Positions 16,288 to 62,701 of a stretch of DNA of 64,000 bases are shown here, piece by piece. Origin of the DNA: a virus; IMG/VR virus record IMGVR_UViG_3300045995_000345, positions 9,025 to 73,024 of that record. One strand, written 5' to 3'. The position numbers and the translations under genes were made by a program. The notes beneath the pieces were generated by a model, which was given only the letters and a program-made list of their open reading frames with translations, had not been told where the DNA came from and did not search any database. How positions within the stretch are numbered: the first letter of the stretch is position 1; the number at the start of each line of letters is the position of its first letter.

Positions 16288-17249
16288 ACGCAGGTTGCCC
16301 GGACGTAGAGCAGGGCGGAGATGGTTGCGTCCCCGCTGGTCACCGTGGTAACCGCCCTCACTTCAAGTGGGTTGTCCGCGTTGTGGCCGGCCTCCACGAT
16401 GCCTTGGTGGATCCACCTGCCCATGCGCTGCGTGTTGTTGGCTACCGGGATAACGTGACCCGTTGTGCTGAAGCCGTCACCTGGATCGCTGCCTGGGCCA
16501 GTCGTTGGAGTTCCCGGAGTGCCGCTGTGGTAGGTCAAGTCTACCTTGATTGACCCGCCGGCTGCCGTGCCGAGGTCCGCATCAACACCGATCTCGATCT
16601 CCTTCCACGTCGTCTTGCCCGCCGGGAGAGCCAGGCTGAGAGTCGTTGTCCCGGCTGTAACGATGGTGTCCGATGCGTAAACCGACGTCGGATACTGGTT
16701 CGCGATGGCCGTGGAGTGGTCCGGGTTGAGCAGTTGGAAGTTCGTCCCGTCGTACACCAACGCAAGGATGGAGTTCGCCTTGATCATCCCAGCCGTGAGC
16801 GCGATACCGAACGCGAGCACCGGAGTTGCCGCCAATCCATTCACCGCGAGCGTGGTGGCACCCGTGTTCTCAGCGGGCACCTTCACCTGGGCGATAATCC
16901 CAGTCAGGGCTGCAAGGTCGGGGATGTAATTCTCGTCTGCGAACGTGACGGAGAAAGCGTCCCCCGTGTTCGTGGCCTCAGCGTAGAGCTTCCGGTTTCC
17001 AACGCGCCGCCACTTGCTGGCTGCCGAGTCCCAGAACATCAAGCCGCGCATGTCGGTTGGCACCCAGAGGATTCCTTGGCGATCGCCGACGGCGGGCTCG
17101 TCTCCGAAGACGAAGTGGGCGCCCGTGAGTACAGTGGCAATCGCGAGGATCGCCGCCTTCAAGTTCTGAAAGTTGGTGTCCGTTTCCTGCTTGGTCAGGG
17201 CGCTTCCCTTGATCAGCCGCAGAACCAGATCGATGTCAGATGGGATCAT
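16284..17249 (-). CDS. tail fibre/receptor-binding protein, paralog 2
   Basis: N-terminal ~175 aa similar to the neighbouring gene; NTGATTLAVNGL..LVYDGTNFQLLN fibre motif. Confidence 0.7.
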   Translation of the reverse strand: MIPSDIDLVLRLIKGSALTKQETDTNFQNLKAAILAIATVLTGAHFVFGDEPAVGDRQGILWVPTDMRGLMFWDSAASKWRRVGNRKLYAEATNTGDAFSVTFADENYIPDLAALTGIIAQVKVPAENTGATTLAVNGLAATPVLAFGIALTAGMIKANSILALVYDGTNFQLLNPDHSTAIANQYPTSVYASDTIVTAGTTTLSLALPAGKTTWKEIEIGVDADLGTAAGGSIKVDLTYHSGTPGTPTTGPGSDPGDGFSTTGHVIPVANNTQRMGRWIHQGIVEAGHNADNPLEVRAVTTVTSGDATISALLYVRATCV

Positions 17250-17253
17250 GGGA

Positions 17254-18384
17254 TTAGTATTCGATGGTTACTTGGCCGTTGGCACCCGCTCCACCTGTGG
17301 CTCCAGACGTTGGGTTGAACGCCCCCTGCCCACCTTCTCCGGGATGAACGCCAGCAGCGCCGGCCGCTTCGGTGTATCGGAAGGAACCAGATCCCCGGCG
17401 TCCGGACTTCGCATTGATGGCAAGAATGCCAGCTCCGGAAGACGACGCTGTCCCGCCGGCACCTTGATCTCCGTAACCCGCAGACCCAACCTTACCACCC
17501 GCCCCGGCGCCGGCCGTCAGAACCCAGCTTGAAGAGAAATAGTTGGCGACGGTGTTGGACCCAACGGCACCGTCCGAGGCTCCGACACCACCCGCACCAC
17601 CCGCACCAGTGGTGAACACGATCTCCTGTCCGGGAGCAACTGTGCAATCAGCGGTAAGGCTGGCGCCATCGCCGCCGTCCCCAGCGACTACGTTCTGGCC
17701 GAGCTGGCTGCCTCCGCCTCCTCCGCCACCACCCACCAGCGTCACTCGAATCTTGGTAATCCCAGCCGGCACAGTCCACGGGCTTGACGGATCCACCACC
17801 ATGGTTGGAACGGGCGAGGGAACTACAGGCACAACGTAATCCTCGAACGCACCCTTGGCGTTCAGCAGGTTGAAGTTTGTCCCGTCGTAAACGAAAGCGC
17901 ACGTCTCGCCCGACTGCATGGCACCGGACTTGAGCGCGGCAGCAAAGGCTGTAATCGGGGTGACCGCGAACGTGTTCAGCTTCAGCGTCGATGCGCCTGA
18001 GTTCGTGGCTGGGATCTTGGCGAAGACCGTGAAGCCAACGATCGAGGCCAGGTCCGGGATCTTGTTCTCCGCCGCCAGGGTCAGCGAGTAGGCATTCCCA
18101 ATGTTCGTCGCGACGGCGTAGAGCTTCCGATTGCTCATCCGAATCCAGCCCGTTCCGTCCCAAGCGTAGATCGCTCGAAAGTCCGAAGGCACCCAGAACG
18201 TGTTCGTCCTGTCAGCAATGGCAGGCTCAGGCCCGAACACAACGCGGCCACCAGCACTCGTGAGCGATGCGGCAATGGCAAGGATGGCGTCCTTGAGAGC
18301 TTGGAAGTCAGCGTCCGTCTCGTCGTGCGTCAGGGGCGATCCCTTGGTCTGCCGCAGCGTCAGTTGAATGTCAGAGGGAATCAT
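17254..18384 (-). CDS. tail fibre protein with a glycine-rich C-terminal domain, paralog 1
   Basis: WTVPAGITKIRVTLVGGGGGGG...GANGQVTIEY Gly-rich domain; N-terminus shared with the downstream gene. Confidence 0.75.
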   Translation of the reverse strand: MIPSDIQLTLRQTKGSPLTHDETDADFQALKDAILAIAASLTSAGGRVVFGPEPAIADRTNTFWVPSDFRAIYAWDGTGWIRMSNRKLYAVATNIGNAYSLTLAAENKIPDLASIVGFTVFAKIPATNSGASTLKLNTFAVTPITAFAAALKSGAMQSGETCAFVYDGTNFNLLNAKGAFEDYVVPVVPSPVPTMVVDPSSPWTVPAGITKIRVTLVGGGGGGGGSQLGQNVVAGDGGDGASLTADCTVAPGQEIVFTTGAGGAGGVGASDGAVGSNTVANYFSSSWVLTAGAGAGGKVGSAGYGDQGAGGTASSSGAGILAINAKSGRRGSGSFRYTEAAGAAGVHPGEGGQGAFNPTSGATGGAGANGQVTIEY

Positions 18385-51797: not shown

Positions 51798-52137
51798 AAA
51801 CCCGCTTTCTAATCTCCCACTTCATGGCCTTCCCTCCGCGCTTCACCTTGAGCTTCCTCCAGCCCCACAGTTCAAGGTGAGCGCCAGGAGTCTTCAGCCA
51901 GTCCACGCAGTCCTTTGCCTTCTCGCCAAGCATAGCAAGTTCGTGTTCCCGGAACGCCTGTCCCGTTGACTGAATGCCGATCACGCCACGGGAATGATCG
52001 AGGGCAAGTATATCGATGCACCCGAACAGGTCTTGACGAATTCCGTGCGGACCCACGAAGCGGTTGAACTTCTCCACGATCCCCGCGCGGTGCCCCTGCT
52101 TCCTGATCTCCGCTAGCGTTCTCTGGGTTGGGCTCAT
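51664..52137 (-). CDS. PD-(D/E)XK nuclease (resolvase-like)
   Basis: SPTQRTL..G....VEK...DLFG.IDILA...IGIQ.T pattern. Confidence 0.7.
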   Translation of the reverse strand: MSPTQRTLAEIRKQGHRAGIVEKFNRFVGPHGIRQDLFGCIDILALDHSRGVIGIQSTGQAFREHELAMLGEKAKDCVDWLKTPGAHLELWGWRKLKVKRGGKAMKWEIRKRVFKLEDFSVAGSSVRASLAEPPVSRIDPRAPSRHPEASVLELPLD

Positions 52138-52184
52138 GATTCATTATCCTCGCACTGCCCCCTCAGGTGGACCCTGGTCCGCTC

Positions 52185-52379
52185 CTATTCCCTCACTATC
52201 CATTCCCGCACCTGGCCGTAGCGGGCGTACCAGTTTCCGGTTCCGTGGCTCACTCGGATAGTCCCGCTTGCCAGCTCGGACTCATAGCGTGTGGCGAAGA
52301 TGATCACGGCGTCGAAATGCTCACCCAACGCTTCAGCAGCTTCGCGCACACGCTTTTCGTCTGGAGAAAAGTCGGTCAC
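52185..52379 (-). CDS. small hypothetical protein
   Basis: LGEHFDAVIIFAT..GNWYARYG..REW. Confidence 0.6.
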   Translation of the reverse strand: MTDFSPDEKRVREAAEALGEHFDAVIIFATRYESELASGTIRVSHGTGNWYARYGQVREWIVRE

Positions 52380-53449
52380 TGGGAGTTGGGTTTCAGAGGC
52401 TGTCTGAGCTGCCCAGTGAGTCGTTTTATTTCGGTCGCCAGATCTCCGTTCTGCTGAACCAGCTCACCCTCCCTCTGGTTGAGTCGTTCTATCTCCAGCC
52501 TGAGTTCGTCTATCTGATTCAGGAGTTCTGTTCTGGACTGCTCCAGTTCCTGTTCCCTATGGAACGGGATATACACCACGCTCTGCGCATCGGTGCCCGC
52601 CTGAACCAACCGCGTGAAGTCGCCGCACGCGATAGCTTGCTTGAAAGCTTCGATCGTCTGTTCCCTCGTAACACCCTCGATGGCGACAAGCTTTTCGTCG
52701 ATCATCTTCTTGATGGCTTCGTCTGCCTTCGCCCTGTAAGCAGCGAACCCGTAGTTCCCGTCCGCGCATTCAGCAGCAGTCCTCGGCATGGGACCAGGAG
52801 TAATCTGAGTTGCGCTCTTCCCAGCCGGCATACCATCCGCGAACGATTTCGGCGTGGGGAACGTGAACGCGCCTTTCTCCTTGAGCATTTTTTCAAGCGC
52901 GGCCTCATAGGCATCGGATGTATATCTCGACCCCCGCTCCATCGGGGGGCCTGGAACTAATATCGGCAACCTGCTTCTCATCCCGATCAACTCCTCCAAG
53001 ATCCGCTCCAGCAATCCCAGCGACTTGTCACTCATGGCGAAGTGGCGCTCGTTGACCCTGTCAGCTTCCTTCGGCGGCGCCGTCTTGAACGCCTCCCGGT
53101 AGAGAACCTCTTCCCGAACGCGCTCCGCTGCCACCCACCATGCATTCAGAACTTCAGGAATCAAGCTCTCGAATTTCAGCCCAGGCAGACGAGTGTCCGC
53201 CTCCTCTCCGTGCGCCGCCCGGTAACCTGAGTTCCACCCCAGGTAAGCCACCTCCGCCAGGGACACCTTAGAAACTGAGTTTCCAGGCAGCGGCGGATCC
53301 CCAATCAAGGCGTCCAGACCACGCTGGGTTTCCTCACGCGAAAGCCCCACTTTCGGAACCTCTCCCGGGGCCATGGAAGTCATCCCGGGGATTCCCCCGG
53401 AAACGTTACCACCCGAAATCCCACCCAAACCGACAGTCTGATCGTTCAT
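52376..53449 (-). CDS. hypothetical protein
   Basis: 357 aa with a C-terminal coiled coil. Confidence 0.6.
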   Translation of the reverse strand: MNDQTVGLGGISGGNVSGGIPGMTSMAPGEVPKVGLSREETQRGLDALIGDPPLPGNSVSKVSLAEVAYLGWNSGYRAAHGEEADTRLPGLKFESLIPEVLNAWWVAAERVREEVLYREAFKTAPPKEADRVNERHFAMSDKSLGLLERILEELIGMRSRLPILVPGPPMERGSRYTSDAYEAALEKMLKEKGAFTFPTPKSFADGMPAGKSATQITPGPMPRTAAECADGNYGFAAYRAKADEAIKKMIDEKLVAIEGVTREQTIEAFKQAIACGDFTRLVQAGTDAQSVVYIPFHREQELEQSRTELLNQIDELRLEIERLNQREGELVQQNGDLATEIKRLTGQLRQPLKPNSQ

Positions 53450-53499
53450 CTGAATGCCTTTCTTTACATGTTGCGTAGCTCAAGGACGCGTTTTTAGCC

Positions 53500-53769
53500 T
53501 CAGGGTGCCACCTTGGTAGCCAAACCCCCTCCCGACGCGTCCACGGAAGGTTCTTTTTTCTGACCCACCCAAACCCCGCTGGGACCCCAGCGATCCCGAT
53601 AATCCGAAACCGCCTTGTCCGCCCACCGAGTTGCCGTTTCCGGTTGCTCCACCCCGATGACCCCGGAAAGCGTCACCCACACCCTAACCCAGAGGTCCTT
53701 CTCCTGAGCCATGGCTTGGGCCTTCAACGCCTGCTCATCAATCCTCCGCTCAAGTTGTTCCATTGTCAT
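53500..53769 (-). CDS. hypothetical protein
   Basis: Start reassigned to the ATGA overlap at 53769. Confidence 0.5.
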   Translation of the reverse strand: MTMEQLERRIDEQALKAQAMAQEKDLWVRVWVTLSGVIGVEQPETATRWADKAVSDYRDRWGPSGVWVGQKKEPSVDASGGGLATKVAP

Positions 53770-54008
53770 GCTGCACCTCCAGCTTCTTCCACCACGTCCA
53801 CCCTCGCTCCAAGAACCTCCTTGAACTCCCCGATCTTGGCCGTGTCCATCTGAAACCTCAAAGACGCATACCCAGCAGGACACGTTGTGTCCCAGCCAGC
53901 GTATATCACTTTCGCACCAGTCGTGATGATCGCCTCCGCCAGCCGGTAGCCGGACACCTTCGTCAGCCTCCACGGATCTGCCTCTCCAATCGAATAGCTC
54001 TGTATCAT
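53766..54008 (-). CDS. hypothetical protein
   Basis: ATGA-coupled. Confidence 0.5.
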   Translation of the reverse strand: MIQSYSIGEADPWRLTKVSGYRLAEAIITTGAKVIYAGWDTTCPAGYASLRFQMDTAKIGEFKEVLGARVDVVEEAGGAA

Positions 54009-54352
54009 GATTTTGCCTTTCTCGCTTCCTTCATCTCCACCTGCACCTGCTTCATCGCCGCGTAGTGACTCCCCTCCAGCTTCCCAGTCTTCAACATGTT
54101 CGCCTCCGCACGGCGCTCAACCTCCACGACGAATAGGTCCAACGCTTCCTCAAAACCAGGCACCGGCAACGATCGCACGTCCGGATGCTCTTCTCGCAAC
54201 ACGGAACTCCGCACAACCTCAGCCGAGTAGCTCCACGCGTTCCTATACCTCTGTTCCAACAATCCCCACGGTATAGGTTGCTCCATACCAAGGCGCGCGT
54301 AGAACGCTTCGTGATTCAACTCGCCCAACCGAAATTCAGCGGTCTTGCTCAT
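54005..54352 (-). CDS. hypothetical protein
   Basis: ATGA-coupled. Confidence 0.55.
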   Translation of the reverse strand: MSKTAEFRLGELNHEAFYARLGMEQPIPWGLLEQRYRNAWSYSAEVVRSSVLREEHPDVRSLPVPGFEEALDLFVVEVERRAEANMLKTGKLEGSHYAAMKQVQVEMKEARKAKS

Positions 54353-54930
54353 AGTTCCTCTGGTTTCATGTATGGCAGCCCAACAAACGCGAATACCTCA
54401 GCCTCCGATCCCATTGCGCGCGCCTCGCCGCTACCACTATTTGTAAATCCAGATCCATACGGATTCCACTTCCACCCGCGCTCCTGCGCCGCCATGCAGA
54501 TTCGAGTGTTGCTGTCCGCCGGCCCCGTCCGACACACCAGATAGTTCCACCAGTTCTCCGCCGTCGCCGCAAACAAGTCCACAGGCATGCCCGTAGCACA
54601 GTGGCGCATCAGCTTGTTCTTCGGCCCATACATCTCCGACCCATTCACGTTCTTACGCCTCTCCAACACCCCGGCCCTCTCCAATCCCGCAATCACTTCA
54701 TCCGCAAGATTCACCGTGATGCTCGCAAACATGTCCGCAGGATCAGCCCTCACCTCAGTCTTCCCAATGTAGAGTATCTCCACATCACCCACCGTCTCCT
54801 TCCGCCTACGCAACGAACCCGCAACGATAATCCGCTCACACGCCGGCCCCAGCACAGCGCACAGCTCGTCCGACACCGCAAGGCCAACAGCCCTGTCGTA
54901 TCGCTTCTTCTCTGTCGTTGTGCTTTCCAT
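54349..54930 (-). CDS. minimal DNA polymerase X-family nucleotidyltransferase
   Basis: AGSLRR.KETVGDVEIL, VDLF, RTG.A..N and SEAEVF..VGLPY..PE motifs. Confidence 0.85.
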   Translation of the reverse strand: MESTTTEKKRYDRAVGLAVSDELCAVLGPACERIIVAGSLRRRKETVGDVEILYIGKTEVRADPADMFASITVNLADEVIAGLERAGVLERRKNVNGSEMYGPKNKLMRHCATGMPVDLFAATAENWWNYLVCRTGPADSNTRICMAAQERGWKWNPYGSGFTNSGSGEARAMGSEAEVFAFVGLPYMKPEEL

Positions 54931-54940
54931 AGCTCCTCTC

Positions 54941-55699
54941 TCAATCCACCGGCAACGAATCCAAAGTTACTTCATCCTTCTGTACAGCTTCTTTAGAAAG
55001 ATGTTCTCCGGAGGACGGAACGTCCACTCTATCTCCTCCTCCGTAGCCCCCAAGCTCCGCAGCCGACATCGTATGTAAGGCTCGTCCGCCTTCATTCGCG
55101 CCTCGCTGGCTGCTATCTCCGCCCTCACCCTGTCGTTGTGAATCTCCTGCGGTGTCTTTGTCATATTGCTGATTTCCTTTCAAGCCAGCGCACTCAGCGT
55201 CCGGATGCCCAGTCGCCACCTCATACTTCTGCGCAAACGTCAATCCCCCACCCTGACCCATCACCTCCGCCATCGTCAGACGCTCCCTATTTGCCCCCGA
55301 ACCAGCAGCAGACTTCTGCGCCTTCGCCTTATCACGATGCCGCTGTTGAGCCTCCCTCAAATACTCCCTCCTGTCTGTAGCCTTCTTGATCTTGTCGTAA
55401 TACTTCCCATTCACCACCCGGTAAAGATACGCCCCCACCATCACCAGCTTCCTCCCTTCCTCCCTATCACTTCTACTCTCATGATCGGGAGCGCACATCT
55501 CACCTATGACCTTCACAATCTTCTTCACGTCCTCCCCGAGCAGGTAGCCCAGCAACACTGGATTCAACTCCACGCACACATCATCCATCTTCGAGTCATA
55601 CCTGTAGTGTGAAATCACGTACCCCCACACCGCAAAGAACGCACTCCCCTTCCCAACCATCGACCCCGTATACATCGACTCAAAGTGTCTTCCATACAT
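54941..55699 (-). CDS. phage replication-initiator-like (winged HTH) protein
   Basis: YG.HFESMY.GSM, PD..SRS...EGR and VVN..YY...RREY.RE.Q.R.R pattern; GGAGGGG RBS. Confidence 0.65.
   Translation of the reverse strand: MYGRHFESMYTGSMVGKGSAFFAVWGYVISHYRYDSKMDDVCVELNPVLLGYLLGEDVKKIVKVIGEMCAPDHESRSDREEGRKLVMVGAYLYRVVNGKYYDKIKKATDRREYLREAQQRHRDKAKAQKSAAGSGANRERLTMAEVMGQGGGLTFAQKYEVATGHPDAECAGLKGNQQYDKDTAGDSQRQGEGGDSSQRGANEGGRALHTMSAAELGGYGGGDRVDVPSSGEHLSKEAVQKDEVTLDSLPVD
54967..55164 (-). CDS. small protein nested in the tail of the initiator-like gene
   Basis: 65 aa charged helical ORF overlapping a low-complexity tail; AAGGAA upstream. Confidence 0.45.
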   Translation of the reverse strand: MTKTPQEIHNDRVRAEIAASEARMKADEPYIRCRLRSLGATEEEIEWTFRPPENIFLKKLYRRMK

Positions 55700-55762
55700 A
55701 TAATCAATATCCCCTCCGTGTACTTGAACGCTGGGATCGTGCCCCCTGGTGAGCAGTTATTC

Positions 55763-55843
55763 CCGGCCTGTGCCCACTCCGCGAGACGCACTTGCGTTTC
55801 AGGTTCGTTACACCCTCGTCAGTCGCGAGTATATTGTGGCCGG
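55763..55843 (-). ncRNA. hammerhead ribozyme (type I)
   Basis: Minus strand reads CGCGA-CUGACGA-GGGU gUAACGA ACCU-GAAA-CGC AAGU GCG-UC-UCGCG; outer CCGGCC/GGCCGG stem. Confidence 0.85.
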
Positions 55844-56349
55844 ACAGATGCAGCCTGCACAGGGGCACGCTTGGCTGCCCACGATCCCAACGTTCTTTTT
55901 TCAGTGCTTGCACGCTCACACCCATAACCCAACTCACCGCGCCACGTCAACAACTTTGTTTATCGTAATCTTGAATAATCAGAAGTAATCCACCATAAGG
56001 CCAGGTACACTTTTGTAATGCCTTCAGATGCAGCTTCAGCTTCACCCTCAGACCCATCTCAGAACCCAATTCCCAGGAGCCAGAAAGTTTCGATGAGGGG
56101 TGTATTAATTACGCCGCGCCAGTTTGGCTTCCCACCCCTCCCCGCCATCCCTCGCCTTGGAACGTGTTAAACCCTTAGCACAAAGGGTTTACACAAGCGG
56201 CTCAAATGACGACCTAAAATATCGTCGTTTTGACCCCTCCTAGAAACTCACTTTCTAAGCGTGTTCTGCGTACTTGTGCGTCCATAACTCCTACGTAGAG
56301 ACAATTCCCCTGCAATTGCCGGTAGGGATTTGGAAACTTGGTTTCCAAG

Positions 56350-57056
56350 GGTGTGGTTTGCCGGTGTTGCAACCTTTTCCCCTCTTTGTGAGCGGCACAT
56401 CCAAAGCCCGGAACTGGATAGGGTGACTGGAAACCCGAACAAGGCCAGTGTTTGAAAAACATCCCATTGCCGGGTCATGGCCGGCACGGATCGAGTGCGA
56501 GTGGACTGCTAAAGTGTTCCACGCTTGCGAGTAAACCTTGCGAGTCAATGCTGGCGGGTCCGACTCCTTCGTCATGAAGGAGCGACTCTTAAGCCTGAAA
56601 GGGCGAAGCGGTTCAGTGCCGCGCCAAGCTAACCTAAACGCTGGCCTAAGGTCGCCAGTGGAGAAATGGGACGATTGACTCCGGGGATATACATTGCGGG
56701 ATAGAGTGTGGCGGTTCGATGAACTGGCGCGTAAAAGTGCGGTTTAAGGTCAACACTAGTGTTTGCTGTGTGCGTAATGGCACTCTGGCAAGCTAGTGCA
56801 ATGGCTACCGTTCACGGTACTAGTGCGGTGTATTATTCCCTACCGTGTTAAGCGTGGAAATCGTTCAAACCTACTCCCCTGAAAGCATAGATACAGGGCG
56901 AAACAACTTGATGCCGGGTTACGTACTGTGACCCGTTATGTCCGCTTGGTAATGTGAAGGCAAGCGGACGCGAGAGAAAGTCTTTTTGGGAACGCGGGAT
57001 TGGTATGTTCTACCGTTCCGCGTTCCCTTTGACTTTCGCATAGTGCGCTCTGGTTT
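56350..57056 (+). ncRNA. candidate large structured ncRNA
   Basis: No credible ORF; more than 10 consecutive hairpins with G-U pairs on the + strand. Confidence 0.55.
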
Positions 57057-57130
57057 TTGGAAAGCTACTTTCCAAATCCTAAACCACAACATACTTCAGA
57101 GCGTGCTACCACGAAAGGCAAAGTACTATC

Positions 57131-57541
57131 ATGAGCGAATCAACTACTACCATCGCATTGGCGCAAGCCAAGGCTGCATTCATTCTGGCGATCACTGGTT
57201 TCACTGGTGCCATGGTGACGGTTCTGGATGCGATGAATTCGGCGATTGCGTTGGCCAAAAAGGCTGGCGGCGACCGGAAGACGGTGAAGAGTTGGGCGAA
57301 GGATTTCTCGGTGTCCCGCCAATGGATCAACAGGATTCTGTCCATGCCGGAGAACTTCGGGCCGGACGCGAAACCTCGCGGCAAGAAAACCGCGAACAGT
57401 ACGGCTACGGCCAAGTCTCTGTGCAAGCGGGCATTGAAGGCTTGCAAGAATGACGCGGTGAAGGCGGCGGAGCTTCTCATGCAAGCGGCGGAGATGTCGG
57501 AAGCGGTGGCGGCCGAAGAGGATTCGGAAGGCGGGGAGTAA
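57131..57541 (+). CDS. HTH-like DNA-binding protein (candidate palindrome binder)
   Basis: TVKSWAKDFSVSRQWINRILS resembles an HTH; flanked by palindromes at 57058 and 57595. Confidence 0.6.
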   Translation: MSESTTTIALAQAKAAFILAITGFTGAMVTVLDAMNSAIALAKKAGGDRKTVKSWAKDFSVSRQWINRILSMPENFGPDAKPRGKKTANSTATAKSLCKRALKACKNDAVKAAELLMQAAEMSEAVAAEEDSEGGE

Positions 57542-57661
57542 TCCGCTTCACGGTTCTCTGGCAAGGCGACCTTGCGTAGCAGGGGGCGAGGGTTTGGAAA
57601 GTAGTTTCCAAAGCTCGCCCCTTGAAGCGTGCGGTCAAACATCAACGGAAAGGATTAGGCA

Positions 57662-57838
57662 ATGCGTATCGAATTCATGCTTGGGCGGTGGCTTTTCACT
57701 GCTCAGATTTTCCACCGTTACCAGTGCGGCGTGTGGATTGGGCGAGAGATCGGGGAAACGTGGAGTGGCTTGGCGTTCATTCCCGGCTTCATGAAACACC
57801 GGCGGAGTCCGTTCAAGCGGACTTGGATTTGCACGTAG
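57662..57838 (+). CDS. small hypothetical protein (58 aa)
   Basis: MRIEFMLGRWLFTAQIFHRYQCG...; AAAGGA upstream. Confidence 0.5.
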   Translation: MRIEFMLGRWLFTAQIFHRYQCGVWIGREIGETWSGLAFIPGFMKHRRSPFKRTWICT

Positions 57839-58078
57839 AGACCCCGCGGTTCCGCCCTTTGGATTTGGAAAGCGAGTTTCCAAAGGGCGGGCTCGTGCGG
57901 TCAAGAGGGGATCTTGCTTATTGCACAAGGCTGGATTAGCACGGCCGGGACATCGGCAGATGAGCTACCGGAGAACTACCACAACGAGAAGCGACCGTCT
58001 GCTGGCGGTCAAAGGGACGCTATGCGACCGGTGCAACGGAGCGGGCTGGCGTTCTGAGAGATGAAAGGGAAGGCTACC

Positions 58079-58237
58079 ATGTATCGAGTTGAGTACAGAG
58101 TGAACGGCGTGCTGTATCGCGCCGTGGTGCACGCGGCGAACGTGCATGACGTGATCGACAGGGAGTTGGCGCTTGTGCGCCACCTTGGGCGGTCTGGTGC
58201 GCGGAAGGCGTTCGTGAGCGCACGGAGGCTGGCGTGA
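58079..58237 (+). CDS. small hypothetical protein (52 aa)
   Basis: MYRVEYRVNGVLYRAVVHA...; GTGA overlap with the next gene. Confidence 0.55.
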   Translation: MYRVEYRVNGVLYRAVVHAANVHDVIDRELALVRHLGRSGARKAFVSARRLA

Positions 58238-58431
58238 ATACCTGCCGTCATTGTCTGGGCGCCAAGTGCATCCATTGCCAGCGTGAGGCTGGTGACCTGC
58301 CGCCGAACAGGGCGACAAGGCGCGCGGACAGGGCGCGGACAGAGCTTGCGAGCCTGCTCGGTCTGGACATTCCCGGTCGGGACGTCCGGGCGTCTGGTCC
58401 TGATCATGTCAGGAGCAGGCTGTTTGCGTAG
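58234..58431 (+). CDS. small Zn-finger protein
   Basis: CRHC...CIHC. Confidence 0.5.
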   Translation: MNTCRHCLGAKCIHCQREAGDLPPNRATRRADRARTELASLLGLDIPGRDVRASGPDHVRSRLFA

Positions 58432-58687
58432 GGGTTGCGCGTCGCCATGCGAAGTGTGAGCGCGTGGCGAGGCGCGGCTGCCATGCCGCGATTGAAGGGA
58501 AGGTGAGCAATATGTGGCGATAACAGAACCAGCGTGATTACGCCCCGCCCTAAGCTGGAACGTGCGATTATGAGGCGCGCGAAAAGCCGGCTTAGGGTGG
58601 TGACGTGGCCACAACCACGGCTTTGACATTTGGAAACTGACTTTCCAAAGTCTCAAGGCTCAACTCAACCAAGAAAGACAGAATACC

Positions 58688-59158
58688 ATGATCGTAGTGA
58701 CCCAGTACGAAGGCTTCGACCTTCTCAACCTGCCGAATCCCGATCCGAGTCTGAAAAAGGATGGCAACCCTCGGCGTCCGATTACCGCAGGCTGCAAGAA
58801 GATCCGCAACATCGTGAAGCACGGCGAGCTGGCCCGCGACTTCTACGATGACACCTTGGTGGATGCGGTGCTGTCGCATCCGGCTGAGGCTGCCGAATTC
58901 CTGGCGGCTTACGACAAGCCGAAAGAACCGAAGCCGGCCAAGGGCAGCAAGGGCACGCCCAAGGCCAAGGAAACGCCAGCCAAGGCATCGGAAGCGCCGT
59001 CTGGGGCTTCGGCTCGGTTTGTGCCGACGATCGCTCCTGCGGCGACGGTGGCGCCTGCGTTGGCCCCTCCCGTGAGTCTGCCGCCGGCTGGAACCTTCAC
59101 CGTGGCGGAACGGCTGGCTGCCCTGAAGGCCAAGTTGCAGGCTCGGGCGACGGTGTGA
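58688..59158 (+). CDS. hypothetical protein with a Lys/Ala/Pro-rich tail
   Basis: 156 aa, between two palindromes. Confidence 0.65.
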   Translation: MIVVTQYEGFDLLNLPNPDPSLKKDGNPRRPITAGCKKIRNIVKHGELARDFYDDTLVDAVLSHPAEAAEFLAAYDKPKEPKPAKGSKGTPKAKETPAKASEAPSGASARFVPTIAPAATVAPALAPPVSLPPAGTFTVAERLAALKAKLQARATV

Positions 59159-59197
59159 GGTTTGGAAACTCGCTTTCCAAAAAGACAAAACCACCAC

Positions 59198-59695
59198 ATG
59201 AAGAACAATAAATCACTGGCGCTGGTCAAAGCCGCGCCTGAAACGAAACCGCCGCTGACAAGGGCGGAGATCATCGAGGCCACGGCGAGGGCGATGTTCG
59301 TGGAGAACCAGAAGCACGTCGCTCACGTTGGCGAGATGCGCTCCGCCATCATCAAGCGGCGAGACGCCAAGATCATGGACTACGTTTGTGAGCGGCCGGA
59401 TCAGTTGCGCATGTCTAACGCCTGGAATGATGGTAAATTCTTAAAGGTTTCATTGGAGTTGTTCGTGGTTCCGCGCGTCGTCATCCAGTCCGAAGAGGAA
59501 GAGGAAGCGAAGCTGCCGGGTGTGTGTTTCAAGACCGTCGAAGACATCCGTAAGGAACTTCGCGCTGCCGATGCCCAGTGCCGTGACCGCGTGACCGAAC
59601 TGGTTAAGGACGAGGAGATTGCCAAGCGTCTGGTGAAGGCTGGCACGGATCTGCTCCGGGCTGCGCTGGCGAAGCAGCCATCGATCGAGGCTTGA
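59198..59695 (+). CDS. hypothetical protein
   Basis: ATG after an A/C-rich leader; between two palindromes. Confidence 0.65.
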   Translation: MKNNKSLALVKAAPETKPPLTRAEIIEATARAMFVENQKHVAHVGEMRSAIIKRRDAKIMDYVCERPDQLRMSNAWNDGKFLKVSLELFVVPRVVIQSEEEEEAKLPGVCFKTVEDIRKELRAADAQCRDRVTELVKDEEIAKRLVKAGTDLLRAALAKQPSIEA

Positions 59696-59802
59696 TAGTT
59701 TGGAAAGTGACTTTCCAAGCCGCTTGAGCACGGCTGGCCTGAGTGTGACAGGCCCGCCTGCTCAGTCGGTCAAACCACAACCAAGAGAAAGGCAGGACAG
59801 AT

Positions 59803-60051
59803 ATGCAGATGAATCAGCAGACCAAGAGCAAGGGCATGAAGAAGAGCACGGCCACGCCGGGCGAGCGCATCGGCCAGCGTTCGCGGAGTGATCGCAACAA
59901 GGCGCGGAGGATCAGTCGCAATCGCAGCATCGCACAGATCGCCAATTCGCCCGACTTCAAGGCGGACTCGATCTGGAAGCACGGCGTCGCCCCTCACTTG
60001 CCCGGCCAGAAGCGCCGGAACGCCCGGCGGAAGGCGCGGTGGCCAAAATGA
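59803..60051 (+). CDS. small basic protein
   Basis: Arg/Lys-rich; AGGA upstream. Confidence 0.5.
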   Translation: MQMNQQTKSKGMKKSTATPGERIGQRSRSDRNKARRISRNRSIAQIANSPDFKADSIWKHGVAPHLPGQKRRNARRKARWPK

Positions 60052-60141
60052 AGTCGGACGCGGCTGCCCGGCTGAATCAGCAGGCGCAACTGGCTGCCGG
60101 CATGGCGGCGAAAAGAATCTGGAAAGTGAGTTTCCAAACCT

Positions 60142-60423
60142 ATGCAATACCCCACACTGCACATGAACGGAACGGCGCCGCGCGATTTGTTTCGCGAATG
60201 CCGGACGGCAATGGATGGACTGAGCACTGCCCAAGAGGCGCTGGCTGCGATGACCGTGAACGGGCGGGATTACTACCCGCAAGGCGACGATGCCTTCACG
60301 AAGGCAAGGGCTGAACACGTCAAGCGACTGGACGCAATCCGGTGCATCCGTGAGGAGATCGAGAAGATCGCCATGCACATCATGGACAACACCCCGGCGA
60401 CAGGATCGCTGGCGCTGGAGTAG
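60142..60423 (+). CDS. hypothetical phage protein
   Basis: PTLHMNGT...NGRDYYPQG motif. Confidence 0.7.
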   Translation: MQYPTLHMNGTAPRDLFRECRTAMDGLSTAQEALAAMTVNGRDYYPQGDDAFTKARAEHVKRLDAIRCIREEIEKIAMHIMDNTPATGSLALE

Positions 60424-60435
60424 AAAGGACACAAC

Positions 60436-60759
60436 ATGAAGACACTGAAAGAAGCCATTGCGCTGGCGCACGATGGACCGATGTTCGTGGCTGAAAGCTG
60501 GGAAGGGTACAAATTCAACCTGAACGGTGGCGACGGCGACGCCATTGCTAAGTTCGATGATGAGGTGGACGCTCAACTGGCAGCTCACTGCATCAACGTT
60601 CTGCCTGAAGTGGTGGCGGCACTGGAGTCTTGCGCTGAACTCTTGGGAGAACTCGCGCGCACGTCGGCAAGCAACGATCAGGCCGATGCCATTGATGCCG
60701 TTAGCGTAGAGGTGCGAACAGTTCTCTCCAAAGCCAATCAGGTGGAGGTGCTGGCATGA
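60436..60759 (+). CDS. hypothetical protein
   Basis: AAGGA RBS; DAQLAAHCINVLPEVVAALE. Confidence 0.65.
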   Translation: MKTLKEAIALAHDGPMFVAESWEGYKFNLNGGDGDAIAKFDDEVDAQLAAHCINVLPEVVAALESCAELLGELARTSASNDQADAIDAVSVEVRTVLSKANQVEVLA

Positions 60760-60986
60760 GCGGCCCCGCATCCCCAGAGCAGATCATCCACTGCCTCAAG
60801 TCGGACATGGATGGCAACCTGCTGGCTGGTGCACGCTACGCCGAGAAGATCAGCCGTGGATTCATGCACAATCCATGGGCGCACCCGTCCGACTCGGTGA
60901 ACTACGCCGAGGCTGCCCGCCGCTTGCGAGTGGAGCATGAGGAGCGCGAAGCGGAGGACGCACATCGCAGAATGTTTCAAGACTGA
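60756..60986 (+). CDS. hypothetical protein
   Basis: GGAGG RBS and ATGA overlap. Confidence 0.6.
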   Translation: MSGPASPEQIIHCLKSDMDGNLLAGARYAEKISRGFMHNPWAHPSDSVNYAEAARRLRVEHEEREAEDAHRRMFQD

Positions 60987-61021
60987 ATGGAAACTCAGTT
61001 TCCAAAAACGAAAGGTAACCA

Positions 61022-61729
61022 ATGAGCACGAAGAAGAAAGTCACAAGCACAGTGAAGGTTCCGACTACAATGGAAAGTCTCGTAGCGCGAGTCGATGCGC
61101 TGCATCGCAAGCTGATAAGCGTGGACATCCCAATCAGCAATCCCGTTGTGCGTGCACTGAATGACAGGATAAGCGAGCTGGCGGAATCCATCGCGTCGTT
61201 TGAGAGTAGGGTTCTCTCCGGAGGGCGGGTGCGCCTCGAAGCTGTGGAGAAGCAACTCGCCGAACTGCAATCCACCGTCGCCAAGCGCATGGAGTATGGC
61301 AACGACGCGCTGCGAGCCATCGAAGCCAGATTGCGCACGCTGGAGGCCGCCGGCGTGGAGCTGAAGCCCGCCGTGCATCCGCCGAAGGAGAAGTCCATCG
61401 ATCCCGGCGAGGGTTGGCGGCTGCTTGAACCGGATGACATCGTGTTGGCTGCCGACGAGATCATGTGTGGCCCGGGGCGTGAGTGGTTACCAGTCGAGGG
61501 AAGCCTCGGCCATACCGTGCGGTCACTGCGTTCCTACGCTTACCGCCGCCGCATCACCCAGCCAAAGCGCGTGAGGTATGAGCTGGTGCAGGAGGGGGAT
61601 GTCATCCTCCACGGAGATGAATTCTGGAGCACCCACAAGAAGGCGTGGAGATTCGTTGATGGTGGCATTGGGTTGCCAGCGCATCCCGAAAGGAACACCA
61701 CCCCAATCCGCCGCCAGATCAAGGACTGA
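61022..61729 (+). CDS. coiled-coil protein with a duplicated C-terminal domain
   Basis: Two ~45 aa repeats (WRLLEPDDIV..DE..W..YRRRI and YELVQEGDVI..DE..W..IRRQI). Confidence 0.65.
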   Translation: MSTKKKVTSTVKVPTTMESLVARVDALHRKLISVDIPISNPVVRALNDRISELAESIASFESRVLSGGRVRLEAVEKQLAELQSTVAKRMEYGNDALRAIEARLRTLEAAGVELKPAVHPPKEKSIDPGEGWRLLEPDDIVLAADEIMCGPGREWLPVEGSLGHTVRSLRSYAYRRRITQPKRVRYELVQEGDVILHGDEFWSTHKKAWRFVDGGIGLPAHPERNTTPIRRQIKD

Positions 61730-61837
61730 CATGCTACTACTCACCGACCCACTCACCCGCTGGTTGATCAGCGCCTTCGCCTGTTCGTTCGTCGCGGCGC
61801 TGGTGTTCTTCTGGCAGGAGTGGAAGAAAGGAAAGCA

Positions 61838-62011
61838 ATGACAGCCGACGAATACCTGGATCAACTCAGGCATGAGCTTGAGAAGATGCTTGCCCTGATA
61901 AACTCAAGGGAACACGGACTGTCCTCTTGGAACGAGGCTGTGCGTGTTCAACTTGCAACCATCCACCGAATCACTGGCGTCGCCGGGATGGTGCATCCCA
62001 GTGATTCCTGA
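61838..62011 (+). CDS. small hypothetical protein
   Basis: AAGGAAAG leader and ATGA overlap. Confidence 0.5.
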   Translation: MTADEYLDQLRHELEKMLALINSREHGLSSWNEAVRVQLATIHRITGVAGMVHPSDS

Positions 62012-62021
62012 AAGGAAAGAA

Positions 62022-62273
62022 ATGAGCAAAGACATCCGAATGTGGAAGTCTGAGAAGAAGCGGTTCGTTCACCTCGCCTGCCGATCAATGGCGCAAGACA
62101 TCTGCAAGCACATCGATGAGGGCCGAGTGCCGGACGAGTGGGATGGCCATGAACTGCGATGCCTTATTGCCCACCGAGCAGAGCAGTGGGCTGCACCAAC
62201 CAAGATCATGCGTAATCCGAAGTGCGAGAGGGCAAAGGAGTTTCACAATACCATCACCATCACCACACTGTGA
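62022..62273 (+). CDS. hypothetical protein
   Basis: VPDEWDGHELR motif; AAGGA upstream. Confidence 0.6.
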   Translation: MSKDIRMWKSEKKRFVHLACRSMAQDICKHIDEGRVPDEWDGHELRCLIAHRAEQWAAPTKIMRNPKCERAKEFHNTITITTL

Positions 62274-62485
62274 ACCCCTCGCAACTCAAGCCGGGCGACC
62301 GCATCAAGTGGAGCCCGCCGGAAGGAGAATCGGAGGGTGCCGACCCGCCAAGCGAGGGGATTGTCACCCGCAAGCACGGCAGCTTCGCCGTCGCCATCGT
62401 CTGGGATGACGGCGCAAGCTGCGCAATTCCAATCGACTCCACCGCTTGGTGGCAACAAGTCGAATCGGTAAGACCTACAGCGTAG
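62270..62485 (+). CDS. small SH3-like beta protein
   Basis: LKPGDRIKW..G.V...IVWDDG; GTGA overlap. Confidence 0.5.
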   Translation: MNPSQLKPGDRIKWSPPEGESEGADPPSEGIVTRKHGSFAVAIVWDDGASCAIPIDSTAWWQQVESVRPTA

Positions 62486-62701
62486 AGCAACACAACCTTG
62501 CCCATGCGTTTCCCCCGGCTCCCCTCCGTGTTCGTTGTGGTCCACGTCGAGGCGTTCAATTGGGTGCGACTGTCCGTGTGGTAGCGGACAGCTTCACCCA
62601 GCCGGGGCGCATGGGCCTTTCACTCAGAGACCACACCAGTTTGGAAAGTCAGTTTCCAATTTCCAGTTACCGCACAGCAAACCACAAACAGAAAGACCAC
62701 C

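What the first reader, a model, noticed from the sequence alone, without database searches (positions are those of the whole stretch)
55763..55843. Hammerhead ribozyme in the 5' leader of a replication-initiator-like gene
Seen in sequence: the minus strand carries a complete hammerhead core. It has CUGACGA (55822-55816), stem II GGGU/ACCU, GAAA (55800-55797), stem III ACGC/GCGU, a GUC triplet (55787-55785), and stem I CGCGA/UCGCG extended across an internal loop by CCGGCC/GGCCGG. Predicted cleavage is between 55785 and 55784, ~85 nt upstream of the ATG at 55699. The 10.1-11.1 pair is G-U rather than G-C. The ribozyme is nested in a 16-bp outer stem (55726-55741 with 55880-55895) that ends near the RBS. 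Inference: self-cleavage creates a 5'-OH mRNA or remodels the leader to control the initiator/PolX operon.
Basis: partly seen in the sequence, partly recalled or inferred. Interest (0 to 1): 0.85.

Follow-up and report, generated by a model that had tools for sequence, protein, structure and literature searches.

The report
Hammerhead ribozyme inside larger phage RNA
The reported self-cutting hammerhead RNA is real by every sequence test available here, and it is the centre of a larger, about 150-base folded RNA that recurs in well over a hundred phages and prophages yet matches no catalogued family in the Rfam library.

Summary
Minus strand 55829-55778 carries a complete type I hammerhead, with cleavage predicted between 55785 and 55784. 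It is the only such site in the window, and 0 of 400 shuffles gave one. Rfam reports nothing, but controls show that Rfam also scores canonical phage type I hammerheads below threshold.

A model built from 59 IMG/VR phage hammerheads scores the site 37.2 bits, against 12.7 for the next hit.

The hammerhead is embedded in a conserved module of about 150 nt (55884-55735). A model built from 63 other members, without the window, scores it 90.8 bits over its full length.

In this family:
- four extra helices covary and form two pseudoknots;
- the catalytic core is conserved, with N7 free and U3-A8 covariation;

The module is portable. It lies between Q and the holin gene in E. coli prophages, beside tRNAs, or before terminators. 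None of 111 homologues of the downstream gene carries it. Operon-specific control is therefore not supported. Self-cleavage that leaves a 5'-OH mRNA is inferred and untested.

The parts
55735..55884 (-). Whole conserved RNA module (about 150 nt), full-length member of the extended hammerhead family
   Evidence: Model R2, built from 63 other members without the window, gives 90.8 bits, E 2e-33, model positions 1-144 of 144. The next hit in the window scores 15.2 bits and lacks the core.
55778..55829 (-). Type I hammerhead ribozyme proper
   Evidence: Model R1, built from 59 IMG/VR phage type I hammerheads, gives 37.2 bits, E 4e-9, positions 1-53 of 53. It is the only match in the 73-kb genome. 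Descriptor hit.
55816..55822 (-). Core C3 U4 G5 A6 C7 G8 A9 (CUGACGA)
   Evidence: Conservation in the family of 85: C3 83, U4 84, G5 85, A6 85, G8 82, A9 84; N7 is free.
55801..55815 (-). Stem II (GGGU/ACCU, 4 bp, closing pair G10.1-U11.1) with 7-nt loop GUAACGA
   Evidence: Family counts at 10.1-11.1: G-C 40, A.A 26, U.U 12, C.A 3, G.U 2, A.C 1, A-U 1 of 85.
55797..55800 (-). G12 A13 A14 A15.1 (GAAA)
55786..55797 (-). Stem III ACGC/GCGU (A15.1-U16.1 plus 3 bp) with loop AAGU
   Evidence: Other phage hammerheads with a 4-bp stem III and 3-5 nt loops appear.
55784..55785 (-). Predicted scissile bond: after C17 (55785), before U1.1 (55784)
   Evidence: Position follows from the hammerhead consensus (established knowledge) applied. 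Cleavage was not tested.
55823..55828 (-). Stem I, 5' strand (UCGCGA)
   Evidence: Pairs with 55784-55779. The 1.1-2.1 pair covaries in the family: G-C 43, C-G 39, A-U 3 of 85.
55779..55784 (-). Stem I, 3' strand (UCGCGG)
55838..55843 (-). Helix P1b, 5' strand (CCGGCC)
   Evidence: Pairs with 55768-55763. The family helix is 100% paired in 63 rows, with compensatory changes at 4 of 6 pairs.
55763..55768 (-). Helix P1b, 3' strand (GGCCGG); it lies inside the loop of P3, which makes a pseudoknot
55772..55777 (-). Helix P3, 5' strand (GUGGGC), just after the conserved GGAG
   Evidence: Pairs with 55754-55749. In the family all six pairs are paired in 85 of 85 rows, with 2-5 pair types each; 100% paired.
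55749..55754 (-). Helix P3, 3' strand (GCUCAC)
55754..55764 (-). Conserved GGGAAUAACUG block
   Evidence: This block was used as the search anchor, so its invariance in my set is by construction. Its presence about 20 nt after the cleavage site in at least 118 IMG/VR loci is the finding.
55873..55878 (-). Helix Pa, 5' strand (GCAGCC)
   Evidence: Pairs with 55855-55850. The family helix is 100% paired, and 5 of 6 pairs show changes on both sides.
55850..55855 (-). Helix Pa, 3' strand (GGCUGC), followed by the conserved CAUCUG (55850-55845)
   Evidence: CAUCU is invariant in 63 rows.
55862..55868 (-). Helix P0, 5' strand (GUGCCCC), inside the loop of Pa, which makes the second pseudoknot
   Evidence: Pairs with 55745-55739. 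The family helix is 90.2% paired and all 7 pairs show changes on both sides. A 9-nt complementary run is present in the window.
55739..55745 (-). Helix P0, 3' strand (GGGGCAC)
55883..55895 (-). Terminal helix P1, 5' strand, lengthened in this phage (13 bp in the fold; 16-nt inverted repeat 55880-55895)
   Evidence: Family members mostly have only about 3-4 pairs here (58% paired).
55726..55738 (-). Terminal helix P1, 3' strand; it ends 8 nt before the Shine-Dalgarno-like GGAGGGG (55717-55711)
54941..55699 (-). Downstream 252-aa ORF, the first gene of the minus-strand block (then the PolX-like gene 54349-54930 and others)
   Evidence: It has 66 homologues besides itself.

Best explanation
Minus strand 55884-55735 encodes a compact RNA module of about 150 nt. 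Its catalytic centre is a type I hammerhead ribozyme (55829-55778). The module is one copy of a widespread, portable phage and prophage RNA family.

In this family the hammerhead's stem I is continued by a helix (P1b). The flanks form three more helices (Pa, P0, P3) that make two pseudoknots, closed by a terminal helix that is lengthened to 13 bp here.

When the minus strand is transcribed towards the 252-aa/PolX-like operon, the RNA is expected to cut itself between C55785 and U55784. That would leave an upstream piece ending in a 2',3'-cyclic phosphate and an operon mRNA starting with a 5'-OH, 85 nt before the ATG. The two pieces would stay clamped by stem I, P1b, P0 and P1.

Shown here: family membership, covariation of the helices, and conservation of the catalytic core. 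Inferred: cleavage itself, and its use as a general 5'-end-making or insulating device rather than a regulator specific to this operon.
For: 1. The complete core and three stems are at the stated coordinates. It is the only such site in the window, and 0 of 400 shuffles gave one.

2. R1, built from 59 other phage type I hammerheads, scores it 37.2 bits (E 4e-9), against 12.7 for the next hit. In 354 kb of related phage DNA the best R1 score is 15.4. Independent members score 18.4-69.2 bits; 51 of 61 score above 37.2.

3. R2, built from 63 extended-family members without the window, scores it 90.8 bits over the full length.

4. Family covariation on A6 (63 rows): 95.6% of cells are paired, against 69.8% in shuffles. 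The covariation score is 0.659, against 0.170 in shuffles (0 of 500 reach it) and 0.067-0.115 when partners are slid. Pa, P1b and P3 are 100% paired and P0 is 90.2% paired. P3 is paired in 85 of 85 rows at all six pairs.

5. CUGANGA was not part of the search pattern, yet it is conserved while N7 varies freely (U 42, C 34, A 8, G 1). Both U3 variants carry A8 (2 of 2). This is the signature of a selected catalytic core. Perreault et al. 2011 report U3-A8 covariation and an active U10.1-U11.1 variant (PMC3088659, section 8, read).

6. The G10.1-U11.1 pair has natural precedents in L212, L247 and L248.

7. The hammerhead-constrained fold is only 2.2 kcal/mol above the MFE. The minus strand folds better than the plus strand (z -4.18 against -2.78).

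8. The position fits phage type I hammerheads in general. The nearest downstream ORF is on the same strand in 66 of 90, with a median distance of about 110 nt. In E. coli prophages a divergent subgroup of the family sits between the antiterminator Q gene and the holin gene, in the late-operon leader.
Against: - Nothing here shows cleavage or transcription.
- Rfam gives no hit, even at E<=10 on 106 nt. This is weakened by the control.
- 10.1-11.1 is G-U. It is G-C in 117 of 118 plain phage type I hammerheads, so the rate may be reduced.
- The MFE fold is an alternative rod that pairs G5-G8 with 16.3-17.
- About 35 base pairs would hold the products together, which favours re-ligation and could trap the RNA.
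- No relative of this locus was available for covariation at this site. Contigs from other runs are identical over the part they cover.
- The family shows no constant orientation to the next gene: opposite strand in 52 of 84. Fifteen of 84 members are followed by terminator-like sites and 12 of 84 abut tRNA genes. A 'leader' role is therefore not the family's general role.
- R1's training set shares the candidate's stem III sequence, because that sequence was part of the search pattern. This inflates the 37.2 bits somewhat.
Confidence: 0.7

Rival explanations
1. The module is an autonomous structured non-coding RNA. Self-cleavage is only a maturation step, giving a two-piece RNA held together by its helices. 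Its job has nothing to do with the operon that happens to lie downstream here. It might act in trans, or act together with tRNA processing.
For: - Four covarying helices and conserved single-stranded blocks lie outside the hammerhead. That is more than a plain type I hammerhead has (A2).
- The orientation and identity of neighbouring genes are not constant.
- 15 of 84 members are followed by terminator-like sites, against 3 of 84 control stretches.
- 12 of 84 have a same-strand tRNA within 60 nt, some abutting it directly.
Against: - In this window there is no terminator between the module and the ORF and no tRNA. The ORF starts 36 nt after the module's end, so co-transcription is likely.
- The extra helices can equally be read as tertiary scaffolding for a core with a weakened 10.1-11.1 pair.
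- No trans target or partner is known.
Confidence: 0.2
2. It is a hammerhead by descent but catalytically weak or dead in this phage: a relic kept only as a structured leader or inverted repeat.
For: - G-U at 10.1-11.1, the most conserved pair after 15.1-16.1 (PMC3088659, section 8). It is G-C in 117 of 118 plain phage type I hammerheads.
- There is a competing rod-like MFE fold.
- The R1 score is low within the family range; it would rank 52nd of 62.
- Perreault et al. found some core-variant hammerhead-like motifs inactive (PMC3088659, section 8 and the legend of Figure S7, read).
Against: - All 11 invariant core nucleotides, all helices and both pseudoknots are intact. Decay would not spare them all.
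- In this family 44 of 85 members lack a Watson-Crick 10.1-11.1 pair while the rest of the core stays conserved.
- A G.U followed by a U.G is kept in two diverged members whose other stem pairs have compensating changes (L212, L248).
- The sequence is identical in contigs of other sequencing runs.
Confidence: 0.08
3. It is a chance hammerhead-like motif inside an unrelated element: an RNase III-type processing hairpin, or a DNA-level inverted repeat such as an origin next to a replication gene.
For: - A 16-nt inverted repeat and a stable rod are present.
- A gene that may act in replication lies next door.
- By my own rough estimate (composition-based, not from a call), a genome-wide scan of many windows would be expected to throw up a few chance core matches.
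Against: - A 90.8-bit full-length match to a model built from other phages.
- 0 of 400 shuffles gave a descriptor hit.
- The helices contain G-U pairs that exist only on the minus-strand RNA.
- The plus strand folds less well.
- Homologues of the neighbouring gene lack the element.
Confidence: 0.02

Closest known systems
Type I hammerhead ribozymes of phages and prophages (Perreault et al. 2011, PMC3088659; Rfam RF00163 Hammerhead_1)
   Same: - The same core, the same topology (stem I open, stems II and III capped) and GUC at the cleavage site.
- Stem I of 6 bp and stem II of 4 bp, as in most of 118 IMG/VR examples.
- An intergenic position in a phage, co-oriented with the next gene.
- U3-A8 covariation and a non-canonical 10.1-11.1 pair were already reported as rare natural variants (section 8 of the paper, read).
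   Different: - About 100 further conserved nucleotides surround the ribozyme: helices Pa, P0, P1b and P3 (two pseudoknots) and conserved blocks (CAUCUG, GGAG, GGGAAUAACUG).
- The 10.1-11.1 pair is Watson-Crick in only 41 of 85 members, against 117 of 118 plain ones.
- RF00163 does not report it.
- I read sections 6 and 8 and searched passages of the paper. Its alignments are in supplements I could not open, so members of this family may already be in its dataset.
Tertiary-stabilised ('extended') hammerheads, including pseudoknot-containing ones
   Same: Peripheral elements beyond the three stems, and a helix I that runs through an internal loop into a further helix. This matches the type III hammerheads of HDV-like circular RNAs described in PMC7936874 (passage read). 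Pseudoknots are reported as common stabilisers in PMC3088659 (section 6) and in PMC11300833 (abstract only seen).
   Different: The published contacts are between loop II and loop I or the stem I internal loop. Here the covarying pseudoknots join the 3' tail to the stem I extension (P1b/P3) and the loop of a 5' hairpin to the 3' end (Pa/P0). In the window, loop II can form only a 3-bp match with the stem I internal loop (my reading; not significant).
Clustered hammerheads that flank genes in prophages (proposed mRNA processing; PMC3088659 section 6)
   Same: Self-cleavage within a long phage transcript that would separate transcription-unit pieces. Relatives of this phage's 252-aa gene do carry such clusters: three type II hammerheads in L093 and one in L049.
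   Different: There is a single copy in this 73-kb genome. It is type I rather than type II. It has a large conserved scaffold. In L093 and L049 the ribozymes lie on the strand opposite to the homologous gene.
Theta (minimal HDV-like) ribozymes next to phage tRNAs (PMC10879173; search listing and abstract only)
   Same: A small self-cleaving ribozyme embedded in phage tRNA arrays. 12 of 84 members of the present family abut same-strand tRNA genes.
   Different: A different ribozyme class. This window has no tRNA.

Membership tests
Hammerhead ribozyme, type I | Conserved core: C3 U4 G5 A6 N7 G8 A9, G12 A13 A14, A15.1-U16.1, H17 | tested here: met
   All are present at 55822-55816, 55800-55797, 55786 and 55785.
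Hammerhead ribozyme, type I | Three helices around the core with stem I open and stems II and III capped | tested here: met
   Stem I 6 bp, stem II 4 bp, stem III 4 bp. Full-length alignment to R1.
Hammerhead ribozyme, type I | Closing pair of stem II, G10.1-C11.1 (highly conserved, not absolute) | tested here: inconclusive
   Here it is G-U: G10.1 is kept and the position is still paired as a wobble. It is G-C in 117 of 118 plain phage type I examples. There are three natural G.U precedents, and in the extended family only 41 of 85 are Watson-Crick. The paper reports an active U.U variant (PMC3088659, section 8).
Hammerhead ribozyme, type I | Match to the curated covariance model (Rfam RF00163, gathering score 34 bits) | tested here: not met
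   No hit at gathering or at E<=10. As a control, of 9 pattern-defined canonical phage type I hammerheads none reached a gathering score, 3 were reported as RF00163 at 21.8-28.5 bits, 3 under other hammerhead models, and 3 not at all. The curated model is therefore not a fair test for phage type I members.
Hammerhead ribozyme, type I | Match to a covariance model of bona fide phage type I hammerheads | tested here: met
   R1: 37.2 bits, E 4e-9, against 12.7 for the next hit. Caveat: the training rows share the candidate's stem III sequence.
Hammerhead ribozyme, type I | Mg2+-dependent self-cleavage 3' of H17 giving a 2',3'-cyclic phosphate and a 5'-OH | not testable with these tools
Extended hammerhead-containing phage RNA (unnamed; defined here by A6 and R2) | Full-length match to the family model | tested here: met
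   R2 (window excluded from training): 90.8 bits, positions 1-144 of 144, at 55884-55735.
Extended hammerhead-containing phage RNA (unnamed; defined here by A6 and R2) | Helices Pa, P0, P1b and P3 (two pseudoknots) | tested here: met
   In the window all are formed: Pa 6 bp, P0 7-9 bp, P1b 6 bp, P3 6 bp with one G-U.
Extended hammerhead-containing phage RNA (unnamed; defined here by A6 and R2) | Conserved blocks CGUGGG (5' end), CAUCUG, GGAG after stem I, and GGGAAUAACUG | tested here: met
   All are present in the window row of A5 and in the R2 alignment. GGGAAUAACUG, GAAAC and GUC were part of the search pattern, so they are not independent evidence in the other rows.

The most novel reading that the evidence does not exclude
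The hammerhead is only the catalytic heart of an uncatalogued class of about 150-nt double-pseudoknot phage RNAs. The class would act as a portable 5'-end-making or insulating cassette placed at the head of transcription units. Examples are the Q-to-holin late leader of E. coli lambdoid prophages, positions inside tRNA arrays, and the position before this operon. Self-cleavage would discard the triphosphate leader and leave a 5'-OH transcript whose end stays clamped in helices. The peripheral fold would replace or tune the normally invariant 10.1-11.1 pair.
Probability: 0.3. Interest if true: 0.7.

Novelty: new variant of a known kind. Interest (0 to 1): 0.5.

Why it matters
Hammerheads in phages are known, so the ribozyme alone is ordinary. 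What is worth a specialist's time is the package around it. There is a large scaffold supported by covariation. The 10.1-11.1 pair, one of the most conserved pairs of the ribozyme, is relaxed here. The RNA occurs in at least 118 IMG/VR contigs, in named phages of enterobacteria and actinobacteria, and in 15 of 5,426 complete E. coli genomes. No RNA annotation was shown at any match I looked at, and no Rfam family reports it.

It also exposes a blind spot: Rfam's type I model misses phage type I hammerheads at its threshold.

The E. coli prophage copies, which belong to a divergent subgroup, sit between the Q gene and the holin gene. They make the biological role of phage hammerheads, an open question since 2011, directly testable in a standard laboratory system.

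Tried and rejected
- **Rfam.** 0 hits on the window at gathering. 0 at E<=10 on 601 nt and on 106 nt. RF00163 over the whole genome gave 0 hits, with 7 candidates scored. Only chance-level hits were found in 55850-57250. After the controls I do not count this as evidence against.
- **Close relatives.** blastn of 55400-56200 against named phages found none. The single-protein scan of IMG/VR found none. The exact 29-mer was not found.
- **U11.1 plus G10.2-C11.2 pattern.** 12 hits, none with a stem I.
- **Upstream DNA against the 111 homologue loci.** Only matches of 25 nt or less at E>=0.39; nhmmer found nothing.
- **Sequencing runs.** No RNA holder was listed. Laid contigs of X2 and X4 were identical over the ribozyme. 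X3 covered only 55300-55652, and X5 laid nothing. These data therefore give neither covariation nor expression. One 274-nt X2 contig matches 55644-55700 with 9 differences and then diverges upstream.
- **Loop II to stem I internal-loop pseudoknot.** Only a 3-bp match by eye; dropped.
- **CRISPR-repeat (solitary repeat) mimic.** I considered whether the conserved 3' block could be one, from a recalled resemblance to type I-E repeats. I rejected it because the G-rich strand pairs with the upstream P1b strand and covaries with it, and because no Rfam CRISPR-DR hit lies there. In PMC10651486 the hammerhead is only an engineered tool (passages read).
- **Tetraloop-receptor-like reading of CAUCUGG/CCUAGG.** This is recalled and was not tested.
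- **Second R2 hit (12334-12463, 15.2 bits).** It lacks CUGANGA, GAAAC and GUC, so I treat it as chance.
- **Flanking-gene Pfam tallies.** No constant partner. Downstream, the commonest family is Laminin_G_3 in 6 of 81. Upstream, antiterminator Q families occur in 4 of 77.
- **Genome-contig scan.** 120 rows (capped), of which only 7 passed my core + GGAG + P3 filter.
- **Literature.** Searches found no description of the extended family. Supplements, such as the alignments of PMC3088659, were closed, so 'undescribed' is not proven.
- **Not used or not available.** Structure, complex and protein-atlas tools were not needed.
- **Rows dropped.**
  - A2 used 59 distinct rows with stem I >=5 and stem II >=4, drawn from the 85 matches in the first 80 loci. 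Its pairing is therefore partly by construction.
  - A5 used 85 distinct rows, window included, from 119 matches. Rows without GGAG, GGAA or AGAG, rows with short flanks, and duplicates were dropped.
  - A6 used 63 of 76 distinct non-window rows. The 13 dropped rows (L187, L251, L264, L276, L282, L286, L298, L317, L335, L339, L344, L346, L351) belong to subgroups whose 5' half does not align. The E. coli prophage type is among them.
Full report
**Setting.** The window is bases 9025-73024 of a 73,024-bp IMG/VR virus record, linear and estimated 93% complete. The finding lies at the head of the only minus-strand gene block in this part of the genome. That block holds a 252-aa ORF (54941-55699), then a 193-aa PolX-like protein (Pfam thumb E 3e-8; NCBIfam PolX E 2.7e-7, far below its cut-off), then four more ORFs. 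Upstream, about 1.2 kb (55,900-57,100) has no convincing gene.

**The observation.** It runs: stem I 5' strand UCGCGA, CUGACGA, stem II GGGU-GUAACGA-ACCU, GAAA, stem III (A)CGC-AAGU-GCG(U), C17, stem I 3' strand UCGCGG. I rebuilt the pairs by script and all coordinates agree. A lenient type I descriptor (core fixed, stems of at least 4, 3 and 3 bp, loops of 3-30 nt) finds this single site on both strands of the 64 kb. It finds none in 400 dinucleotide-preserving shuffles. The hammerhead-constrained fold of the 181-nt context costs only 2.2 kcal/mol more than the MFE (-75.1 against -77.3). The minus strand is more structured than the plus strand (z -4.18, 0 of 200 shuffles as stable, against z -2.78, 2 of 200). 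The 16-nt outer inverted repeat is real, 15 of 16 complementary.

**Why Rfam is silent.** Rfam 15 gives nothing, even at E<=10 on 106 nt. I ran two controls.
- Three canonical type II hammerheads in a related locus (L093) score 34.2-41.7 bits. Only one passes the gathering score.
- Of nine canonical G-C type I hammerheads from IMG/VR phages, none reaches a gathering score. Three appear as Hammerhead_1 at 21.8-28.5 bits, three under other hammerhead models, and three not at all.

The curated type I model is therefore weak on phage members, and its silence says little.

- Of 126 matches, 118 have a stem I of at least 4 bp.
- Their 10.1-11.1 pair is G-C in 117 and G-U in 1.
- N7 is U in 75 and C in 43.

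From 59 distinct rows I built model R1. R1 scores the candidate 37.2 bits (E about 4e-9) over all 53 positions, and the next hit in the window scores 12.7. It is the only match in the whole genome. In 354 kb of DNA from relatives of the neighbouring gene the best score is 15.4. Independent members not used for training score 18.4-69.2 bits, so the candidate would rank 52nd of 62. One caveat applies: the training rows share the candidate's stem III, which inflates its score.

**The turn: a larger conserved RNA.** While looking for natural G-U precedents I found three: L212, L247 and L248. The other two of the five U11.1 hits are one chance sequence seen twice. I then noticed that L247, L187 and the window share sequence beyond stem I, including GGAG and GGGAAUAACUG about 20 nt after the cleavage site. 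Of 119 matches, 104 have CUGANGA within 70 nt upstream.

Alignment of 85 distinct sequences including the window (A5), and of 63 main-subgroup sequences without it (A6), shows a module of about 150 nt. It contains:
- a 5' CGUGGG;
- hairpin Pa;
- the conserved CAUCUG(G);
- helix P1b, which continues stem I across an internal loop;
- the hammerhead;
- GGAG;
- helix P3, whose loop holds the 3' strand of P1b and the GGGAAUAACUG block (first pseudoknot);
- CCUAGG or CCAGG;
- helix P0 between the loop of Pa and the 3' end (second pseudoknot);
- a short terminal helix.

On A6, 95.6% of 1,881 cells are paired, against 69.8% in shuffles. The covariation score is 0.659, against 0.170 in shuffles (0 of 500 reach it) and 0.067-0.115 with slid partners. 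Pa, P1b and P3 are 100% paired and P0 is 90.2% paired, with changes on both sides at 5 of 6, 4 of 6, 5 of 6 and 7 of 7 pairs respectively. On all 85 rows, P3 is paired 85 of 85 at each of its six pairs.

Model R2, built from A6 without the window, scores 55884-55735 at 90.8 bits (E about 2e-33) over positions 1-144 of 144. The only other hit above 6 bits (15.2) has no hammerhead core. The 'outer stem' is the family's terminal helix, lengthened to 13 bp in this phage.

**Is the core under selection for catalysis?** CUGANGA was not in the search pattern. Even so, in 85 rows C3 is kept in 83, U4 in 84, G5 and A6 in 85, G8 in 82 and A9 in 84. N7 varies freely (U 42, C 34, A 8, G 1). The two U3 rows both carry A8. 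That covariation, and an active U10.1-U11.1 variant, are reported for natural hammerheads by Perreault et al. 2011 (PMC3088659; sections 6 and 8 read).

By contrast, 10.1-11.1 in this family is G-C 40, A.A 26, U.U 12, C.A 3, G.U 2, A.C 1 and A-U 1. The window's G-U is therefore ordinary for its family and unusual only against plain type I hammerheads. GAAAC and GUC were in the pattern, so their invariance is by construction.

**Context and function.** The module is portable.
- None of 111 loci encoding homologues of the 252-aa protein has a type I hammerhead or similar upstream DNA. Two of them carry type II hammerheads on the opposite strand.
- In 84 family loci the nearest downstream ORF is on the opposite strand in 52 and on the same strand in 31.
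- No Pfam family recurs beside it beyond 6 of 81 downstream and 4 of 77 upstream, the latter being antiterminator Q families.
- 12 of 84 have a same-strand tRNA within 60 nt, some abutting it.
- 15 of 84 are followed by a terminator-like site, against 3 of 84 control stretches.

blastn finds members in named phages: Enterobacter phage SDFMU_EhYP, Pectobacterium and Dickeya phages, Mycobacterium phage Gaia and Arthrobacter phages. At those matches there is no annotation, or only 'hypothetical protein'.

A divergent subgroup, which shares the hammerhead, P3 and the 3' half but has a different 5' half, is present in 15 of 5,426 complete E. coli genomes. No feature is annotated under the match in the 8 records listed. 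In the one I opened it lies between the antiterminator Q gene and the lambda-family holin gene, in the late-operon leader. Seven filtered hits in bacterial genomes, six named in the listing, include Burkholderia, Lysobacter, Ochrobactrum, Asticcacaulis, a Rhizobiales MAG and a Spirochaetes MAG.

For plain phage type I hammerheads, the nearest downstream ORF is co-oriented in 66 of 90, and the median distance from cleavage site to ORF is about 110 nt. The window's 85 nt fits.

**Reading.** The most economical account is a self-cleaving module that severs whatever RNA lies upstream from the transcript that follows. That would leave the operon mRNA with a 5'-OH end held in helices. The chemistry follows from established hammerhead knowledge. 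The biological use is inferred.

An autonomous-ncRNA role for the scaffold cannot be excluded. Nor can a reduced rate from the wobble pair and the long clamp of about 35 bp. Nothing here shows transcription or cleavage.

**Novelty.** The ribozyme class is known, and phage hammerheads are known. I could not find the scaffold, the two pseudoknots or the relaxed 10.1-11.1 pair described in print (literature searches; papers read as stated above). No Rfam family reports it. I therefore file it as a new variant of a known kind, with that reservation.

Noticed in passing
window 1894-62659, densest at 56330-62659: A 19-nt palindrome, TTGGAAA-N5-TTTCCAA, occurs 20 times at up to 2 mismatches (19 distinct sites). 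0.13 are expected by chance, and 0 of 100 shuffles reach 20. In 57-63 kb most copies sit just upstream of plus-strand ORF starts, which suggests a phage-specific operator, promoter or RNA hairpin. Copies at 56330-56348 and 56241-56259 are the nearest upstream of the ribozyme on the minus strand.
   Followed up: partly
window 55900-57100: About 1.2 kb between divergent gene blocks has no convincing gene. The two longest minus-strand ORFs have no Pfam or PHROG hit, and Rfam gives only chance-level hits. If the minus strand is transcribed from here, the ribozyme would cut off a long non-coding leader.
   Followed up: partly
window 52001-56000: There is strong negative GC skew on the plus strand (-0.20 and -0.35 in the two 2-kb bins). 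It coincides with the minus-strand gene block, whose RNA is G-rich.
   Followed up: no
L093 611-663, 1280-1333, 1825-1879 (minus strand); L049 596-667 (minus strand): In L093, three canonical type II hammerheads spaced about 550-670 nt apart lie upstream of the homologue of the 252-aa gene, on the opposite strand. L049 has one more. This is the clustered arrangement described for prophages.
   Followed up: partly
L139, L141, L153, L176, L182, L187, L191: Rfam's Hammerhead_1 model under-detects phage type I hammerheads: 0 of 9 reach a gathering score. Several of these ribozymes sit at the ends of long tRNA arrays (L176, L182), and L191 also has a twister-P5 ribozyme at 48.4 bits.
   Followed up: yes
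L222, L217, L236, L206, L234: Some IMG/VR contigs carry 3-5 plain type I hammerheads within a few kb. This genome has a single one.
   Followed up: no
window 55644-55700 (run X2, record 2): A 274-nt contig from another river metagenome run matches the first codons of the 252-aa gene with 9 differences and then diverges completely upstream of the start codon. A relative therefore seems to lack the module at this place.
   Followed up: no
L304 4881-5050 (minus strand): This is the family member closest to the window in its 3' half. It has an extra hairpin inserted after P1b, and lies between two tRNAs with a type II hammerhead (47.7 bits) 250 nt upstream.
   Followed up: no
window 16725-16997 and 17860-18132: Two direct repeats of 39 nt and 86 nt, 82% and 71% identical, each recur at a spacing of 1135 nt. 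This suggests tandem paralogous genes in the structural region.
   Followed up: no
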